The notes: a model not told the origin generated them from the letters alone. Numbered from the stretch's first letter, positions 40,369 through 44,585 are shown. The stretch: DNA of 45,262 nt from Rhodospirillales bacterium (GCA_003252195.1 QKFK01000194.1:1-45262), one strand, 5' to 3'. Translations and numbers: made by a program.

Positions 40369-41112
40369 TTATGGTGTGTTTAACAACGAGTTATGTAAGC
40401 CAATTATATATCTTCGTAAATTGTAGTATTCATCGCTCCTGCGTAATACCTTGAGTTTGCAATAATTTATATCGTATTCGCGCTCTCCTTTTATGCTTAG
40501 ATGGCAGGCGTTAACTTTCATCTCATAAATATAGTTACGTAATTCTCGTAATTCATCTAGCCCTGGTTGTTTGGTTTTCGCAAATAACTTTTGAGTTAGT
40601 TTTTCTGCTTCTATTGATTGTTCGTATGCTGCGTCGTATAAGTCTTGTTCTGTAAAATTAAAATTTCTTTTTTGTGGCTTTGATACCCATTTATCTTTTG
40701 ATAGGGAGTAGGCCCCAGATGAAACAGGCTCTGTGTCGAATATGCAATAATCAATTCGTTTACCTGCAACTGCGAAGTTATAACCCATAAAAACCAGTTC
40801 AGCGACAATGCAATCTAATAATCTTTGTAAATAATAAGATCGAATGTCTGGGTGGTAGGCTTCTATTTGTACGTCAATATCACTTTTATCTTTATATAAA
40901 TAGCTTGCTGAGCTTCCTTGTAAATATACATCTTTTATCACAATATTAGGAATTCTCTTTTTTAGCTGATCTACTACAAATTGTCCGACCGTAAACAAGG
41001 CTGGTTTTACTTCTTCTTTAAGCTGATGATCAGAATTAAAGAGTGCAGAAGGAAGAGTGTCTCTGACATTCATGCATGATTTTACGGTGTTCATAAGTTC
41101 TTCGTTTATCAT
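40369..41112 (-). CDS. Pol-beta-superfamily nucleotidyltransferase-like protein, paralogue 1 of 4
   Basis: Motifs, in track numbering: LQG72S73SASYLYKDKSD84ID86VQI, then RID127YCIF, VSSGAYS and EYDINY. I start it at ATG 41112, 7 nt after the paralogue-2 stop; the track starts at TTG 41130. It aligns along its whole length with the three upstream ORFs. Confidence 0.65.
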   Translation of the reverse strand: MINEELMNTVKSCMNVRDTLPSALFNSDHQLKEEVKPALFTVGQFVVDQLKKRIPNIVIKDVYLQGSSASYLYKDKSDIDVQIEAYHPDIRSYYLQRLLDCIVAELVFMGYNFAVAGKRIDYCIFDTEPVSSGAYSLSKDKWVSKPQKRNFNFTEQDLYDAAYEQSIEAEKLTQKLFAKTKQPGLDELRELRNYIYEMKVNACHLSIKGEREYDINYCKLKVLRRSDEYYNLRRYIIGLHNSLLNTP

Positions 41113-41119
41113 GTTTATC

Positions 41120-41911
41120 TCACAGATCAATTGAATTTTTGTGGTGTTTGAACATAGGGTTTTCTACAACACTTTTATGTTGAATAATCATGTAGTTTCT
41201 TAGCTCGTTATATTCACCACATTTTCTAAATGTTCTAAAAGCTGTGTAGTTAAAATCATACTCTTTTTTTCCGTTTGAGGCACTGTGATAGGCGTTTAGT
41301 CGCATGTTATCAAAATATTCTCTCATTTTATCACATTGCTCAAAGGTGCAATTATCTTTATATTCTTCGCTAAGTTCTCTTATAAAATTTTCAGTGTCTT
41401 TTCTCATTTTAATAACGGCGTCACAGATATCACTATATGAAAACTCAAATTCTTGTCTTACAGGTTCTTCTATCCATTTGCGATTTAATACAGAATAAAT
41501 ACCAGAGCTAATTCCTTTTATGTATGAAAATGCAGTGTAATCTACGAGTTTGTTCTTAATACTGGTTTTGTATCCAAGAAGCATTAGCTCGTATGATATA
41601 GCATCTAGCATACCTTCTAATTCTTTGGCATTAAATTTGGGGTGTGAGCATAAAATATGTAAATCTAAATCGCTTTTGGGGTTATATGTATAATTTACAG
41701 AGCTTCCTTGGAATACAATGTCATCAAGTGTAATGTTTGGAATCATGTCTTTAACGTAATCATACACAAACTCGCCAATACGCAAAAACGATGGTTGCAT
41801 ATCTTTATGTAATTGTGAGCTACTATCAAATAAAAAGCTGTTTAATTGCCTATTATTCGTCATGCATTCTATTGCGGTCTTTTGTATATTTGTAAAGTTT
41901 ATTTCAGCCAT
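41120..41911 (-). CDS. Pol-beta-superfamily nucleotidyltransferase-like protein, paralogue 2 of 4
   Basis: FQGSSVNYTYNPKSDLDLHI, LVDYTAF, ISSGIYS, EYDFNY. 263 aa. Confidence 0.65.
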   Translation of the reverse strand: MAEINFTNIQKTAIECMTNNRQLNSFLFDSSSQLHKDMQPSFLRIGEFVYDYVKDMIPNITLDDIVFQGSSVNYTYNPKSDLDLHILCSHPKFNAKELEGMLDAISYELMLLGYKTSIKNKLVDYTAFSYIKGISSGIYSVLNRKWIEEPVRQEFEFSYSDICDAVIKMRKDTENFIRELSEEYKDNCTFEQCDKMREYFDNMRLNAYHSASNGKKEYDFNYTAFRTFRKCGEYNELRNYMIIQHKSVVENPMFKHHKNSIDL

Positions 41912-41985
41912 TGTTTTAATCCAGATAACATAATTTAATATTATATTCTTGAATTGTTTAAAACTCTTATAATCTTTGAAGAAAC

Positions 41986-42747: not shown

Positions 42748-42750
42748 CTT

Positions 42751-43530
42751 TTAGTGTCCTTGTTTCGTCGGCAATGACTTTATAAAATTATTGTTGTACA
42801 TAGATATAATGAAATCACGCATATTATGTAATTCTCCAGTGTTACGGAGTAGCTTTAAAGCAGTATAATCAAGGTTATATTCATTGCCGTTACTTTTGGC
42901 AGATGCTATTGCGTGCTTTTTTATATTTTCAAAGTAGTCACGCATTTTGTTGCAATTATCAATCGATATGTATTGGTTAGATTCTTTGGGAAGAGAGTTA
43001 ATAAAATTCTCTGTTTCTATTGATATATTATATGTTTGTTTGATTAATTCAGCTTTTGAAAAATTAAAATTGCCTTTTGTTGGTTTTCTAACCCATGTGT
43101 CACTGATTATTGAGTAAATGCCAGATGTTGCCCCAATATCTTCCTTTTCACGAATAGAGTAATCTATTGTTTCTCCGCTAGGTAGCTTGAAGTTATAACC
43201 CATACCACTGAGATATGTGCCTAGGTTTATTAATAGATTTGAAAAGGATTCTTTGTCCATATTGTTGTTCTCGCATAGAACAATCAAATCAACATCACTT
43301 TGGGGGTGGTATATATAGCTTGATAACCCACCTTGTATGATGACATCTATTATTTGGGTGTTAGGAATTGATAGATTAATGTTTTTCTCTAAAAAATGAT
43401 ATATGCGCGAGCACAATTCCTTTGTATTGGGGTATAGTTGCATATTTGTATTAAATAAGGTTGCGCTAACCTTATCATTTATGCGCATGCATATCTCTGC
43501 ATCTTTATCAAACTTTTCATATATATTCAT
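42751..43530 (-). CDS. Pol-beta-superfamily nucleotidyltransferase-like protein, paralogue 4 of 4
   Basis: IQGGLSSYIYHPQSDVDLIV, TIDYSI, ATSGIYS, EYNLDY. The start is uncertain. ATG 43530 (MNIYEKFDKDAEICM...) aligns best with the N-termini of the other paralogues. The track uses TTG 43566, which overlaps the upstream gene by 7 nt. Confidence 0.6.
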   Translation of the reverse strand: MNIYEKFDKDAEICMRINDKVSATLFNTNMQLYPNTKELCSRIYHFLEKNINLSIPNTQIIDVIIQGGLSSYIYHPQSDVDLIVLCENNNMDKESFSNLLINLGTYLSGMGYNFKLPSGETIDYSIREKEDIGATSGIYSIISDTWVRKPTKGNFNFSKAELIKQTYNISIETENFINSLPKESNQYISIDNCNKMRDYFENIKKHAIASAKSNGNEYNLDYTALKLLRNTGELHNMRDFIISMYNNNFIKSLPTKQGH

Positions 43531-43559
43531 ATATATGTTACTATCATATTTTATAGTTT

Positions 43560-44585
43560 TTAGCAACTACCATAAGAGCAACTAGCTGAATATGAGGCGT
43601 TCGAATAACAAGTACATGATTTATAGCTTGAGTTATATGAACATGTTGAAGCTGTATATCCAGTATCACAAGATGTTTCTGTGTATCCTGCTTCACTACA
43701 TTGCTGAGCCGTATCAGTATGACATGCTACTGCAGTGCATTTTAAATATGCGCTGTTATATGGGCATATGCCTGCTAAGCTGTATCCAGATGAGCAATAT
43801 CCTTGAAGGTCTTCAGGTGGCTCGTAATCATATCCAGCGAGAATACATTGTTGGGCCGTATCTGTGTGGCAATCTGTGTGGCAAGTAGCTGCTTCTGAGT
43901 AACATGAGTCACACATATAATAGCTTGAACTGTATGCGCAAACAGAGCCTAAGCTATAGCCTGTTGGGCAATCATTGGATGATGTTGCTGTATATCCACT
44001 TGCTGTGCACACAGTAGCGGCTGACGCACATGACACGTATGAACTATTATAAGGGCATATTGAGCCTAAGCTATACCCACTTGAACCCGTTGGGCAATCA
44101 TTAGATGTTAGTGCTGTATATCCAGCATCAGTGCATTGTTGTATAGTGTCTGTGTGGCAGTTTGAGTAGCAAGTACATTTTTTATATGTCGAATTATAAG
44201 AGCAACTTGCTGTTGTGTAACCTGTAGCACAAGATGTTGCTGTATATCCAGCGTCAGCACATTGTTGAACTGTGTCAGTGTGGCATGTATCTACGAACGC
44301 GTGGCAATTGCTATAGCAATTTTCAAGAGTTGCGCCTGATGTGTCGCCTGAACTATCCGTTTTTGTGCCGATCATTCCACCTAAATATTGTAGCCTTGCT
44401 GTTTGGCGGCCAGTGATGGATTTGTCTGGGGTAAGTGAGCTTTTGTAATTAAGAGGAGAATCATTATCTTTAGCAGGGATGTCTAGTTTTATTAGTTCTG
44501 CTTCGCTTGAACTTCCGGATAAAACTATACCACCAGCAATGCATAGTAGAGATAGAGGGTACATTTTAGTGTGTTCTTTTGCCAT
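43560..44585 (-). CDS. Exported cysteine-rich repeat protein (five modules of about 45 aa, CHTDTxQQC...AGYT...C.TGY...C.YNS.Y..C)
   Basis: 341 aa. AGGAGA lies 7 nt upstream of ATG 44585. The N-terminal signal-like segment is MAKEHTKMYPLSLLCIAGGIVLSGSSS. By my count there are 32 Cys after the signal region. Cys, Ser, Thr, Tyr, Gly and Ala dominate and Lys/Arg are nearly absent. The repeats are also visible at the DNA level. Confidence 0.7.
   Translation of the reverse strand: MAKEHTKMYPLSLLCIAGGIVLSGSSSEAELIKLDIPAKDNDSPLNYKSSLTPDKSITGRQTARLQYLGGMIGTKTDSSGDTSGATLENCYSNCHAFVDTCHTDTVQQCADAGYTATSCATGYTTASCSYNSTYKKCTCYSNCHTDTIQQCTDAGYTALTSNDCPTGSSGYSLGSICPYNSSYVSCASAATVCTASGYTATSSNDCPTGYSLGSVCAYSSSYYMCDSCYSEAATCHTDCHTDTAQQCILAGYDYEPPEDLQGYCSSGYSLAGICPYNSAYLKCTAVACHTDTAQQCSEAGYTETSCDTGYTASTCSYNSSYKSCTCYSNASYSASCSYGSC

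What the first reader, a model, noticed from the sequence alone, without database searches (positions are those of the whole stretch)
40369..43566. All four paralogues keep a complete Pol-beta NTase catalytic signature despite deep divergence
Aligning the four ORFs by eye gives six conserved blocks:
1. LF[ND][ST]xxQL near the N-terminus.
2. [LFI]QG[SG]xxxYxxxxx[SC]D[ILV]D[VLI], the classic hG[GS]-x9-13-DxD motif of Pol-beta-fold NTases. OAS1, poly(A) polymerase and kanamycin NTase show the same pattern.
3. GY[NK]...x[ILV]D[YF], a third acidic residue about 40 aa downstream on a predicted strand.
4. [IVA][ST]SG[AIV]YS...W[VIL]xxP.
5. F[NED]F[ST].
6. A helical C-terminal domain with C[DN]K[MI]R[DE]YFxN[MI] and EY[DN]xxY...LR.

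Outside these blocks identity is low, roughly a quarter to a third by eye. The copies are therefore old duplicates kept under selection rather than a recent amplification. None looks like a decayed pseudogene.

Tandem arrays of diverged but catalytically intact enzymes are typical of effector or toxin repertoires and of specificity-diversified modification enzymes. The size (about 250 aa) and the N-terminal NTase plus C-terminal helical-bundle layout resemble the ANT/KNTase, YcgL/RlaP-type and AbiEii/MenT-type NTases. I cannot assign the paralogues to any of them.
Basis: partly seen in the sequence, partly recalled or inferred. Interest (0 to 1): 0.7.

Follow-up and report, generated by a model that had tools for sequence, protein, structure and literature searches.

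The report
Four nucleotidyltransferases behind a cysteine-rich secreted protein
Four old, intact copies of an uncharacterised, mostly phage-borne nucleotidyltransferase sit in one operon behind a secreted cysteine-rich repeat protein, and this gene pairing recurs in several uncultured Alphaproteobacteria with its function still unknown.

Summary
Four minus-strand ORFs (40369-43566) are 26-36% identical paralogues. All keep hG[GS], [SC]DxD and a third Asp on the strands where Pol-beta nucleotidyltransferases (NTases) carry them.

They are not ANT/KNTase, RlaP, AbiEii/MenT, MNT or CD-NTase members. They match PHROG 36119 ("unknown function") over their full length. That family has no Pfam model but about 4,400 sequence clusters. 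It occurs in T4-like cyanophages, Caulobacter phage Cr30 and Lak megaphages, and was single-copy in 80 viral loci.

New here: the four genes form a five-gene operon with an upstream signal-peptide protein (43560-44585) that is 10% Cys and 37% Ser/Thr/Tyr. The pairing "Cys-rich secreted protein then 1-4 NTases" recurs in all six loci of the bacterial clade. No phage locus has a Cys-rich neighbour.

The duplications are old (W2 is 66% identical to a copy in another array) and under purifying selection. Other arrays contain catalytically dead copies; this one does not.

The chemistry (NMP transfer) is well supported. The acceptor is unknown. My best guess is modification of, or linked to, the co-encoded secreted protein. 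Interest is moderate.

The parts
40369..41130 (-). NTase paralogue W1 (253 aa from TTG 41130; more likely 247 aa from ATG 41112). Catalytic G72-S73, D84, D86, D127 intact.
   Evidence: phrog_36119 E 1.7e-15, full length; AF2 model; start codon
41120..41911 (-). NTase paralogue W2 (263 aa), catalytic motifs intact. It is 66% identical to the third NTase of the array in locus L166.
   Evidence: (MTPAP-like_central 24.9 bits, below the 27-bit cut-off)
41986..42747 (-). NTase paralogue W3 (253 aa), QGG...CDID...IDF, catalytic motifs intact. It is the most divergent in blocks 1 and 5.
42751..43566 (-). NTase paralogue W4 (271 aa from TTG 43566, which overlaps the stop of the upstream gene by 7 nt; alternative ATG at 43530). 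Catalytic motifs intact.
43560..44585 (-). First gene of the operon: a 341-aa protein with an N-terminal signal peptide. It has 33 Cys (9.7%), 54 Ser, 42 Thr and 32 Tyr. It is built from repeated modules (CHTDTxQQCxxAGYT...CxxGY....C[PS]YNSSYKxC) and has no Pfam, NCBIfam or PADLOC match. Homologous proteins precede the NTase genes in all other bacterial loci found.
   Evidence: (internal DNA repeats D1-D4)
44731..44760 (-). Best sigma-70-like promoter match upstream of the Cys-rich gene (TTGATT-18-TATAAT). It lies in a 500-bp AT-rich intergenic region and is a consensus match only.
40109..40137 (.). Palindromic intrinsic terminator (13-bp stem, T-runs on both sides). It lies between the convergent ppiD-like gene and W1 and is the likely 3' end of the five-gene operon.

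Best explanation
The region 40369-44585 (minus strand) is one operon. It encodes a Sec-exported protein rich in Cys, Ser, Thr and Tyr, followed by four cytoplasmic Pol-beta-fold nucleotidyltransferases that appear catalytically competent.

Shown:
- The four proteins belong to a large uncharacterised NTase family (PHROG 36119) that is otherwise carried mainly by large tailed phages.
- The G[GS], SDxD and third-acid positions, the canonical metal and triphosphate ligands in this fold, are conserved family-wide.
- The paralogues are old and under purifying selection.
- Pairing with a homologous Cys-rich secreted protein is conserved in every bacterial locus of this clade that I found.

Inferred:
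- Each enzyme transfers an NMP (or a nucleotide-derived phospho-group) from an NTP to a hydroxyl acceptor by the two-metal mechanism.
- The C-terminal four-helix domain (invariant E218, R230) and the G139-x-Y-S...W148...P152 hairpin would form the acceptor and base pocket.
- The enzymes probably act as homo- or heterodimers. Phage relatives occur as fused double-NTase proteins, and sister arrays pair dead with live copies.
- The acceptor is most likely the co-translated Cys-rich protein, modified on Ser, Thr or Tyr before export, or a molecule functionally tied to it. The paralogues would differ in site or nucleotide specificity.

Confidence by layer: active NTase of this family about 0.9; operon-level functional link to the Cys-rich protein about 0.6; the protein itself as acceptor about 0.3.
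For: Fold and motifs:
- Motif positions and conservation.
- A profile of 67 members aligns its GG-x9-SDiD segment to the GS...SDIDF catalytic motif of solved MNT-type NTases.
- Family members pass the NTP_transf_2 and Polbeta gathering scores.

Family:
- Full-length phrog_36119 matches, E 1e-13 to 1e-16.
- 4,430 representative clusters at E<=1e-3.
- 132 confirmed IMG/VR loci.
- Cultured-phage homologues in cyanophages, Cr30, Lak and Maribacter phages.
- BFVD structural matches with query-normalised TM-score (TMq) around 0.7.

Operon:
- A 7-nt overlap and 3-74 nt gaps between genes, one promoter-like site and one terminator.

Conserved pairing:
- Seen in the window, L166/L167, L163/L164/L172, L165, L169 and L173/L180.
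- The Cys-rich proteins are homologous, at 37% identity over the full length between the window and L166.
- Stop/start overlap also occurs in L163 and L165.
- 0 of 468 neighbouring ORFs in phage loci have 5% Cys or more.

Age and selection.

Dimer idea:
- About 500-aa phage proteins carry two NTase modules.
- Dead/live pairs occur in L163 and L180.

Charge: pI is mostly 5.3-7.
Against: - No biochemical data exist for any member of the family.
- Phage homologues work without any Cys-rich partner, so the ancestral acceptor is something else.
- Cys-rich paralogues also occur without adjacent NTases (L174, L175, L176).
- Modifying a Sec substrate in the cytoplasm before export is unusual.
- The AF2 model of the Cys-rich protein is unusable (pLDDT 35), so no docking or site prediction was possible.
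- Model coordinates are not exposed, so the metal-site geometry was checked only at the level of secondary-structure placement.
- Only six loci support the association, and two of them may come from the same community or even the same genome.
Confidence: 0.4

Rival explanations
1. The four enzymes are RNA 3'-end nucleotidyltransferases (TUTase, poly(A) polymerase, CCA-adding or MenT-like). They would tail or repair tRNA or other RNAs. The linkage to the Cys-rich gene would be only co-regulation on an island derived from a phage.
For: - The best solved-structure matches are TUT7, CutA, mtPAP, GLD-2 and URT1 (prob about 1.0).
- The best Pfam model is MTPAP-like_central.
- One phage relative is fused to a 2H/LigT phosphoesterase, a typical RNA-end-healing domain.
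- The family lies mostly in large phages that carry RNA-repair modules (for background).
Against: - Foldseek E-values are only about 1e-3, with TMq 0.27 over about 140 columns.
- There is no PAP-associated domain hit.
- pI is acidic to neutral, with a median of 5.8 for 64 members. This is atypical for RNA-binding NTases.
- No RNA ligase or tRNA association appeared among phage neighbours.
- No antitoxin-like partner is present.
Confidence: 0.2
2. The enzymes act on small molecules or nucleotides. They would inactivate an antibiotic-like compound as ANT/Lnu enzymes do. Alternatively they would make nucleotide second messengers, like the CDN-synthesising phage NTases of Ho et al. or CD-NTases.
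For: - The size and layout (about 250 aa, NTase plus C-terminal helical bundle) and the acidic pI resemble ANT(4')/KNTase.
- Phage relatives are fused to GNAT, dCMP deaminase, HIGH-type NTase and Acb1-like 2H domains, all nucleotide or small-molecule enzymes.
- One GenBank phage record labels a homologue 'aminoglycoside nucleotidyltransferase' (automatic annotation).
- Phage NTases that make cGAMP/cAA are documented (bioRxiv 10.1101/2022.06.09.495361).
Against: - No KNTase_C, ANT, Lnu, SMODS or CD-NTase profile hit.
- hhalign of the family profile against the Bcp1 CDN-synthesising NTase gives probability 0.15%.
- No sensor or effector gene lies in the operon.
- This reading does not explain the strict pairing with the Cys-rich secreted protein.
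Confidence: 0.2
3. The cassette is a conflict or surface-variation module. The Cys-rich protein would be an adhesin or receptor-binding protein (one homologue carries a phage Tail Collar domain). The NTases would be domesticated phage counter-defence or defence enzymes, or immunity-like partners, that act on a foreign target.
For: - A Tail Collar domain is present in the L169 Cys-rich proteins (E 5.5e-9 and 2.5e-9).
- Xre/CI-type regulators lie next to the cassette or to Cys-rich paralogues.
- Family fusions resemble phage polyvalent proteins, with ParB nuclease, lysozyme, a metallopeptidase and an Acb1-like domain (background PMC5512222).
- Copy number is variable and some paralogues are dead.
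Against: - No PADLOC defence model is matched beyond E about 1e-3.
- No toxin domain sits at the C-termini of the Cys-rich proteins.
- The window copy lies between core genes (tpiA, ppiD) with no integrase or other mobile-element gene in view.
Confidence: 0.15
4. The motif match is coincidental or the proteins are pseudoenzymes, so they are not NTases.
For: - For the window proteins alone, every Pfam NTase hit is below the gathering threshold.
- Sequence-only PDB searches are non-significant.
- Sister arrays do contain copies that have lost the motifs.
Against: - All four window copies keep every catalytic position.
- These positions are invariant in 67 of 67 family members.
- The predicted topology is the canonical one.
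- Family members pass the Pfam thresholds.
- All top structural hits are NTases.
Confidence: 0.03

Closest known systems
PHROG 36119 (phage protein family, function unknown)
   Same: All four paralogues match over the full length (profile positions about 10-245 of 247, E 1e-13 to 1e-16). They share G[GS], SDxD, a third acid, G-x-Y-S, W..P, E218 and R230. Members occur in T4-like cyanophages (S-CRM01 g125), Caulobacter phage Cr30, Lak megaphages and Maribacter phages.
   Different: - Phage members are single-copy per locus (80/80 loci) or fused double-domain proteins, and they have no Cys-rich neighbour.
- The window proteins belong to a separate bacterial clade: Q-G instead of T-G-G, D instead of E as the third acid, an EY..Y motif and extra Cys.
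- That clade occurs as arrays of up to four copies (1 to 4 seen per locus) behind a secreted Cys-rich protein.
Non-canonical poly(A) polymerases / terminal uridylyltransferases (TUT7, CutA, mtPAP, GLD-2, URT1; Pfam MTPAP-like_central)
   Same: These are the best structural matches and the best Pfam model. They share the Pol-beta palm with GS, DxD and a third Asp, followed by a helical domain.
   Different: Only about 140 columns align (TMq 0.27, E about 1e-3). The Pfam score is below the cut-off and there is no PAP-associated domain. The window proteins are about 100 residues shorter, have acidic pI, and show no RNA-binding modules.
Kanamycin/aminoglycoside nucleotidyltransferase ANT(4') and Lnu-type enzymes
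   Same: Size of about 250 aa, an N-terminal NTase domain plus a C-terminal helical bundle, and acidic pI. Those enzymes work as dimers (from established knowledge of the KNTase structure).
   Different: No KNTase_C or ANT profile hit. No KNTase or Lnu chain was returned by the PDB profile search. AAD(9) appears only at Foldseek rank 43 (prob 0.57). The window proteins have an extra N-terminal segment of about 60 aa.
MNT (MntA) minimal nucleotidyltransferases of HEPN/MNT toxin-antitoxin systems
   Same: These are the nearest PDB sequence matches (9xbd, 8xeh, 5yep, 2rff) and align over the GS...SDID motif. MntA sets a precedent for an NTase that nucleotidylylates a Tyr of the protein encoded next to it.
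   Different: E-values are 0.008-0.2. The NCBIfam MntA score is 12.8 against a cut-off of 60. The window proteins are twice as long, have no HEPN partner, and the adjacent protein is exported.
Phage CDN-synthesising NTases of Ho et al. 2022 (Bcp1 YP_009031408, Av05)
   Same: Phage-borne proteins of about 250 aa with Pol-beta NTase GS and SDxD motifs.
   Different: hhalign of the 67-member profile against Bcp1 gives probability 0.15%. The defining second motif, NP-x-h2[DE] about 60 residues after SDxD, is absent. This is a different family.
Cytoplasmic modification of exported adhesins (HMW1C/HMW1; serine-rich-repeat adhesin glycosyltransferases)
   Same: This is an analogy only. Enzymes, often several paralogues, are encoded next to a repetitive Ser/Thr-rich secreted protein and modify it in the cytoplasm before export.
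   Different: Those enzymes are glycosyltransferases, not NTases. No homology exists, and the analogy is recalled from the literature rather than tested here.

Membership tests
[quoted passage not shown] | hG[GS] motif at the end of the first core strand | tested here: met
   LQG72-S73 / QGS / QGG / QGG in W1-W4. G is present in 67/67 family members and the next residue is G or S in 67/67. AF2 places it after strand 64-71.
[quoted passage not shown] | [DE]h[DE]h motif on the second strand and a third carboxylate on the third strand | tested here: met
   D84-x-D86 lies at the start of strand 85-92 and D127 lies in strand 124-131. Family-wide, D is 67/67 at both positions and E/D is 65/67 at the third.
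[quoted passage not shown] | Significant profile similarity to curated NTase models | tested here: met
   Window proteins alone are sub-threshold (NTP_transf_2 12.5-17.8 bits in W1, W2 and W4, none in W3, cut-off 21; MTPAP-like_central up to 24.9, cut-off 27). Homologous family members pass, with NTP_transf_2 E 3.7e-12 and Polbeta 5.3e-11, and 16 of 80 members match.
[quoted passage not shown] | Three carboxylates converge on a two-metal site in 3D; measurable NMP transfer | not testable with these tools
   Model coordinates are not exposed, so only secondary-structure placement was checked.
PHROG 36119 | Full-length match to the family HMM | tested here: met
   E 1.7e-15, 2.3e-13, 1.8e-14 and 2e-16, covering profile positions about 10-246 of 247.
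Non-canonical PAP / TUTase (MTPAP-like_central + PAP-associated domain) | Palm domain above the gathering score, plus a PAP-associated (PAP/25A core) domain | tested here: not met
   The best score is 24.9 bits, below the 27-bit cut-off, and no PAP_assoc hit appears even at E<=10. Foldseek TMq is 0.27.
KNTase / ANT(4'), ANT(6), Lnu | KNTase_C or ANT-specific C-terminal domain; sequence similarity to solved ANT/Lnu enzymes | tested here: not met
   There is no such Pfam or NCBIfam hit at E<=10 or E<=1. None appear among PDB profile hits at E<=1. AAD(9) 6sxj is at Foldseek rank 43, prob 0.57.
RlaP / Nuc-transf (PF10127), including the CDN-synthesising phage NTases of Ho et al. | PF10127 match; GS-x-AY[GAN]T-x4-SDxD plus NP-x-h2[DE] about 60 residues downstream | tested here: not met
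   There is no PF10127 hit. hhalign of A3 against Bcp1 YP_009031408 gives probability 0.15%. The NP-x-h2[DE] motif is absent from the alignments.
AbiEii / MenT (DUF1814) toxin NTases | PF08843 match and an adjacent cognate antitoxin (AbiEi/MenA-type) gene | tested here: not met
   There is no Pfam or PADLOC AbiE hit. The intergenic gaps of 3-74 nt leave no room for a partner ORF.
CD-NTase / SMODS (CBASS) | SMODS/CD-NTase profile match and an adjacent effector gene | tested here: not met
   There is no PADLOC CBASS or Pfam SMODS hit. CdnE and CdnC appear only at Foldseek ranks 46-47. No effector gene is present.
HEPN/MNT type VII TA antitoxin (MntA) | MntA model above its cut-off and an adjacent HEPN toxin | tested here: not met
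   NF047752 scores 12.8 bits against a cut-off of 60. There is no HEPN gene in the operon.

The most novel reading that the evidence does not exclude
The cassette would be an unrecognised protein-modification system of uncultured Alphaproteobacteria. Arrays of phage-derived NTases, acting as homo- or heterodimers, would covalently nucleotidylylate Ser, Thr or Tyr of a co-translated Cys-rich adhesin-like repeat protein before Sec export. They might instead attach nucleotide-derived phospho-groups. Either way this would create a nucleotide-decorated surface protein. By extension, the roughly 4,400-cluster phage family would consist of protein-nucleotidylylating enzymes.
Probability: 0.15. Interest if true: 0.8.

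Novelty: new variant of a known kind. Interest (0 to 1): 0.5.

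Why it matters
The four genes belong to a very large NTase family: 4,430 clusters at 50% identity, present in cyanophages, Lak megaphages and Caulobacter phage Cr30. The family has no Pfam model, no solved structure and no known substrate.

The bacterial cassette gives this family its first consistent genomic partner. That partner is a secreted, hydroxyl-rich, Cys-rich repeat protein. It turns "unknown phage NTase" into a testable hypothesis: does the enzyme modify its neighbour?

If the neighbour is the acceptor, this would be a new type of post-translational decoration of exported bacterial proteins. If it is not, the arrays, the dead/live pairs and the fused double-domain phage proteins still point to a dimeric working unit, which can guide structural and biochemical work. 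Cr30, which infects Caulobacter crescentus CB15, is a cultured phage-host pair in which to study the phage side.

Tried and rejected
- Word-indexed homology searches with the paralogue alignments returned only 4 proteins each. The exhaustive HMM search was needed to see the family.
- GTDB genome scans with W2 alone and with the four-paralogue alignment found nothing.
- A hand-made degenerate DNA pattern for D-x3-QG-x4-Y-x5-[SC]DxD recovered three alphaproteobacterial MAG loci plus two likely chance actinobacterial hits, which were not inspected. In the metagenome collection it gave only one chance hit.
- PDB sequence searches with 6- and 67-member profiles gave no significant hit.
- Guilt by association in phages failed. 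Neighbours differ between phage groups (UvdE/Fpg/exonuclease, DnaB, capsid module, tail-fibre-like proteins) and no family recurs.
- AF2 of the Cys-rich protein with 6 sequences gave pLDDT 35, so no fold search was run on it.
- Literature searches for phrog_36119, the MAG, SRA and JGI accessions, the cassette and Cr30 found no characterisation.
- The Ho et al. phage NTase family was considered as the identity of this family and rejected by hhalign.
- A polymorphic toxin/immunity reading was considered and set aside because no toxin domain is detectable in any Cys-rich protein.
- Recent amplification was rejected on DNA repeats.
- dN/dS could not be estimated for the window paralogues because dS is saturated. 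Only pN and pS are given.

Full report
**1. The observation**

The ORF listing shows four head-to-tail ORFs on the minus strand at the reported coordinates. I call them W1 (40369-41130, 253 aa), W2 (41120-41911, 263 aa), W3 (41986-42747, 253 aa) and W4 (42751-43566, 271 aa).

MAFFT gives 31-36% identity to W1 and 26-34% between all pairs. There are 32 invariant columns, including G72, D84, D86, D127, S138, G139, Y141, S142, W148, P152, E218, Y219 and R230.

- Blocks 1 and 5 and the CDKMR[DE]YF motif hold in three of four (W3 or W1 deviates).
- At DNA level the paralogues share only one 29-nt stretch, so there has been no recent amplification or gene conversion.
- W1 probably starts at ATG 41112 (247 aa), as called on a 100% identical public contig.
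- W4 may start at ATG 43530.

**2. Is it a Pol-beta nucleotidyltransferase (NTase)?**

For the window proteins alone, Pfam gives only sub-threshold hits to MTPAP-like_central (up to 24.9 bits; cut-off 27), NTP_transf_2 and Polbeta. All of these hits cover the GS...DxD segment. Three further lines make the assignment solid.

(a) Family-wide conservation. An exhaustive HMM search finds 4,430 representative clusters, 1,559 of them at E<=1e-30. In an alignment of 67 single-domain members the G is 67/67, the next residue is G or S in 67/67, S83 is 64/67, D84 and D86 are 67/67, and position 127 is E (56) or D (9).

(b) Transitive profile support. Among 80 longer members of the same family, 16 match NTP_transf_2 (best E 3.7e-12), 7 match Polbeta (5.3e-11) and 9 match MTPAP-like_central. 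The one member shown in full (P0008) scores above the NTP_transf_2 and Polbeta gathering cut-offs.

(c) Predicted structure. The AF2 model of W1 (pLDDT 80.6, pTM 0.74) has this order:
- strand 64-71, then G72-S73 opening a short helix;
- strand 85-92, starting at D84/D86;
- helix 98-114;
- strand 124-131, carrying D127;
- a small hairpin at 140-150;
- four helices at 161-250.

This is the canonical topology. The best Foldseek PDB hits are overwhelmingly NTases: TUT7, CutA, mtPAP, GLD-2, URT1, then AAD(9) and CD-NTases. They have E about 1e-3 and query-normalised TM-score (TMq) about 0.27, so no solved structure is close. Profile-against-PDB sequence search aligns the family's GG-x9-SDiD segment with the GS...SDIDF motif of MNT-type NTases, at non-significant E-values. 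I could not measure the metal-site geometry because model coordinates are not exposed.

**3. Which family?**

- There are no hits to KNTase_C, PF10127 (RlaP/Nuc-transf), AbiEii/DUF1814, SMODS/CD-NTase, ANT or Lnu in Pfam, NCBIfam or PADLOC.
- MntA scores 12.8 bits against a cut-off of 60.
- The only full-length match is PHROG 36119, "unknown function", at E 1e-13 to 1e-16 over about 235 of 247 profile positions.

The family has these properties.
- BFVD structural matches are uncharacterised Caudovirales proteins with TMq 0.67-0.76.
- 132 IMG/VR loci were confirmed.
- Cultured carriers include freshwater T4-like cyanophages (S-CRM01 g125), Caulobacter phage Cr30, Lak megaphages, other huge phages and Maribacter phages. 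These are annotated "hypothetical" or, automatically, "aminoglycoside nucleotidyltransferase".
- Nothing was found on plasmids.

A documented phage NTase family makes cGAMP/cAA to jam STING (Ho et al., bioRxiv 10.1101/2022.06.09.495361). I fetched its prototype, Bcp1 YP_009031408. hhalign against the 67-member profile gives probability 0.15%, and its NP-x-h2[DE] motif is absent here. It is a different family.

**4. What the phage relatives tell**

- In 80 viral loci the gene is always single-copy.
- Neighbours differ by phage group (UvdE/Fpg/exonuclease next to the capsid module, DnaB, tail-fibre-like proteins) and no family recurs.
- Some members are proteins of about 500 aa with two complete NTase modules.
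- Other members are fused to GNAT, dCMP deaminase, a HIGH-type NTase, amidoligase, 2H/LigT/Acb1-like, ParB-nuclease, lysozyme or metallopeptidase domains. This repertoire resembles phage "polyvalent" conflict proteins (PMC5512222).
- Median pI of 64 single-domain members is 5.8, which argues weakly against a nucleic-acid substrate.

**5. The new context: a conserved cassette**

Immediately upstream, with its stop overlapping the W4 TTG by 7 nt, lies a 341-aa ORF (43560-44585).
- It has a signal peptide.
- It contains 33 Cys (9.7%), 54 Ser, 42 Thr and 32 Tyr.
- It is built from repeated modules CHTDTxQQCxxAGYT...CxxGY...C[PS]YNSSYKxC.
- Its internal repeats are visible at DNA level.
- It has no match in Pfam, NCBIfam or PADLOC, and only a non-significant one in PHROGs (phrog_31403, E 0.11).

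A promoter-like site (44760-44731) and a palindromic terminator (40109-40137) bracket the five genes. The flanks are core genes: eno, kdsA, pyrG, secG, tpiA and a ppiD-like gene. bamA and rpsB lie further along. RpsB is at most 70% identical to gut and rumen Alphaproteobacteria MAGs, so the host is an uncultured low-GC alphaproteobacterium.

The closest NTase relatives all lie in the same arrangement.

| Locus | Source | Arrangement |
|---|---|---|
| L166/L167 | GCA_003251935.1 | Divergent Xre regulator, 493-aa Cys-rich protein (37% identical to the window's over its full length), then at least 3 NTases |
| L163/L164/L172 | Alphaproteobacteria UBA5343 | 635-aa Cys/His-rich protein, then overlapping NTase, then a second NTase |
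| L165 | ENA metagenome scaffold (unbinned) | Cys-rich C-terminus, then overlapping NTase |
| L169 | RGIG4730, roe-deer rectum | Cys-rich protein with a phage Tail Collar domain (E 5.5e-9), then two NTases |
| L173/L180 | SIG58 | Two Cys-rich proteins and four NTases |

That is six of six bacterial-clade loci. By contrast, 0 of 468 neighbouring ORFs in phage loci have 5% Cys or more. The Cys-rich family also occurs without NTases (L174, L175, L176), so the dependence, if any, runs from the NTases to the Cys-rich protein. L166 and the window co-occur in one SRA run and have similar GC. They may therefore come from one community or even one genome.

**6. Age, selection and catalytic state**

- W2 is 66% identical to L166c but 27-34% to W1, W3 and W4, so the duplications predate that split.
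- For W2 against L166c, pS is saturated (0.76) while pN is 0.22.
- For L163a against L165a, dN/dS is about 0.15.
- All four window copies keep the catalytic residues.
- L163b (GE / DIA / A), L173a and a fourth SIG58 copy have lost them. In SIG58 each dead copy precedes a live one.

Together with the fused double-domain phage proteins, this suggests the working unit is a dimer. That would resemble KNTase-type enzymes, a comparison from established knowledge that I did not test here.

**7. Mechanism and rivals**

Well supported: these are Mg-dependent NMP transferases.

Inferred: the operon link, the stop/start overlaps (suggestive of translational coupling) and the strict synteny tie their role to the exported Cys-rich protein. 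That protein is 37% Ser/Thr/Tyr. My best guess is O-nucleotidylylation of that protein before export, or transfer of a nucleotide-derived phospho-group to it. The paralogues would differ in site or nucleotide. I put this acceptor at about 0.3.

Rivals:
- RNA 3'-end tailing or repair. The structural neighbours are TUTases, but the match is weak and the pI is acidic.
- Small-molecule or nucleotide chemistry (ANT-like layout, fusion partners).
- A conflict or surface-variation module with no direct enzyme-substrate relation.
- A coincidental motif, which is effectively excluded.

**8. Verdict**

The added value is the conserved "Cys-rich secreted protein plus NTase array" cassette. No paper describing this cassette was found in the library searches. 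I rate it a new variant of a known kind and of moderate interest.

Noticed in passing
window 43560-44585 (minus strand): A 341-aa signal-peptide protein with 9.7% Cys and repeated modules of about 45 aa (CHTDTxQQC..AGYT..C.YNSSYKxC), with internal DNA repeats at 75-80% identity. It has no Pfam, NCBIfam or PADLOC match. AF2 with 6 sequences gives pLDDT 35.
   Followed up: yes
L163 3416-4177; L173 5327-6049 (= L180 11529-12251); L180 9270-10007: In sister arrays some NTase paralogues have lost the G[GS], DxD and third-acid residues. In SIG58 each dead copy sits directly before a live one, suggesting pseudoenzyme/enzyme heterodimers.
   Followed up: partly
P0008, P0010, P0021, P0022 (proteins of about 500 aa from the representative search): Single polypeptides carry two complete NTase modules of this family, both with intact motifs. 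This is a fused counterpart of the tandem genes.
   Followed up: partly
L169 1907-3076 and 7348-7962: The Cys-rich partner proteins of a roe-deer-gut alphaproteobacterial MAG contain a Phage Tail Collar domain (PF07484, E 5.5e-9 and 2.5e-9). The cassette there lies next to ORFs that by eye look like flagellar basal-body genes (flgF, flgG, flgA, flgH; not profile-tested).
   Followed up: partly
L174 1243-2736; L175 2974-4485; L176 13-1062 and 1284-3278: Cys-rich paralogues also occur without NTase genes. They lie next to a CI/Xre-type repressor, a Ser/Thr protein kinase or a sigma-70 factor, so this is a multigene family in these bacteria.
   Followed up: partly
window 44586-45087: A 500-bp AT-rich intergenic region upstream of the operon contains overlapping palindromes (44928-44986), which are possible operator sites. 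A minus-strand ORF runs in from the window end and stops near 45088.
   Followed up: no
window 40109-40137: A perfect 13-bp-stem palindromic terminator with T-runs on both sides is shared by the convergent ppiD-like gene and the NTase operon.
   Followed up: partly
W1 positions 19, 91 and 194 in TTG numbering (alignment columns 25, 97 and 230 of the 20-sequence alignment): Three Cys positions are conserved only in the window/L166/L163 subclade of NTases (8-10 of 15 bacterial sequences, 0 of 5 phage sequences). Phage-type members have a median of 1 Cys.
   Followed up: no
P0105, P0109, P0120, P0151 and other long family members: Phage relatives are fused to amidoligase, dCMP deaminase, GNAT, HIGH-type cytidylyltransferase, 2H/LigT/Acb1-like, ParB-nuclease, lysozyme and DUF6782 metallopeptidase domains. 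These are polyvalent-protein-like architectures.
   Followed up: partly
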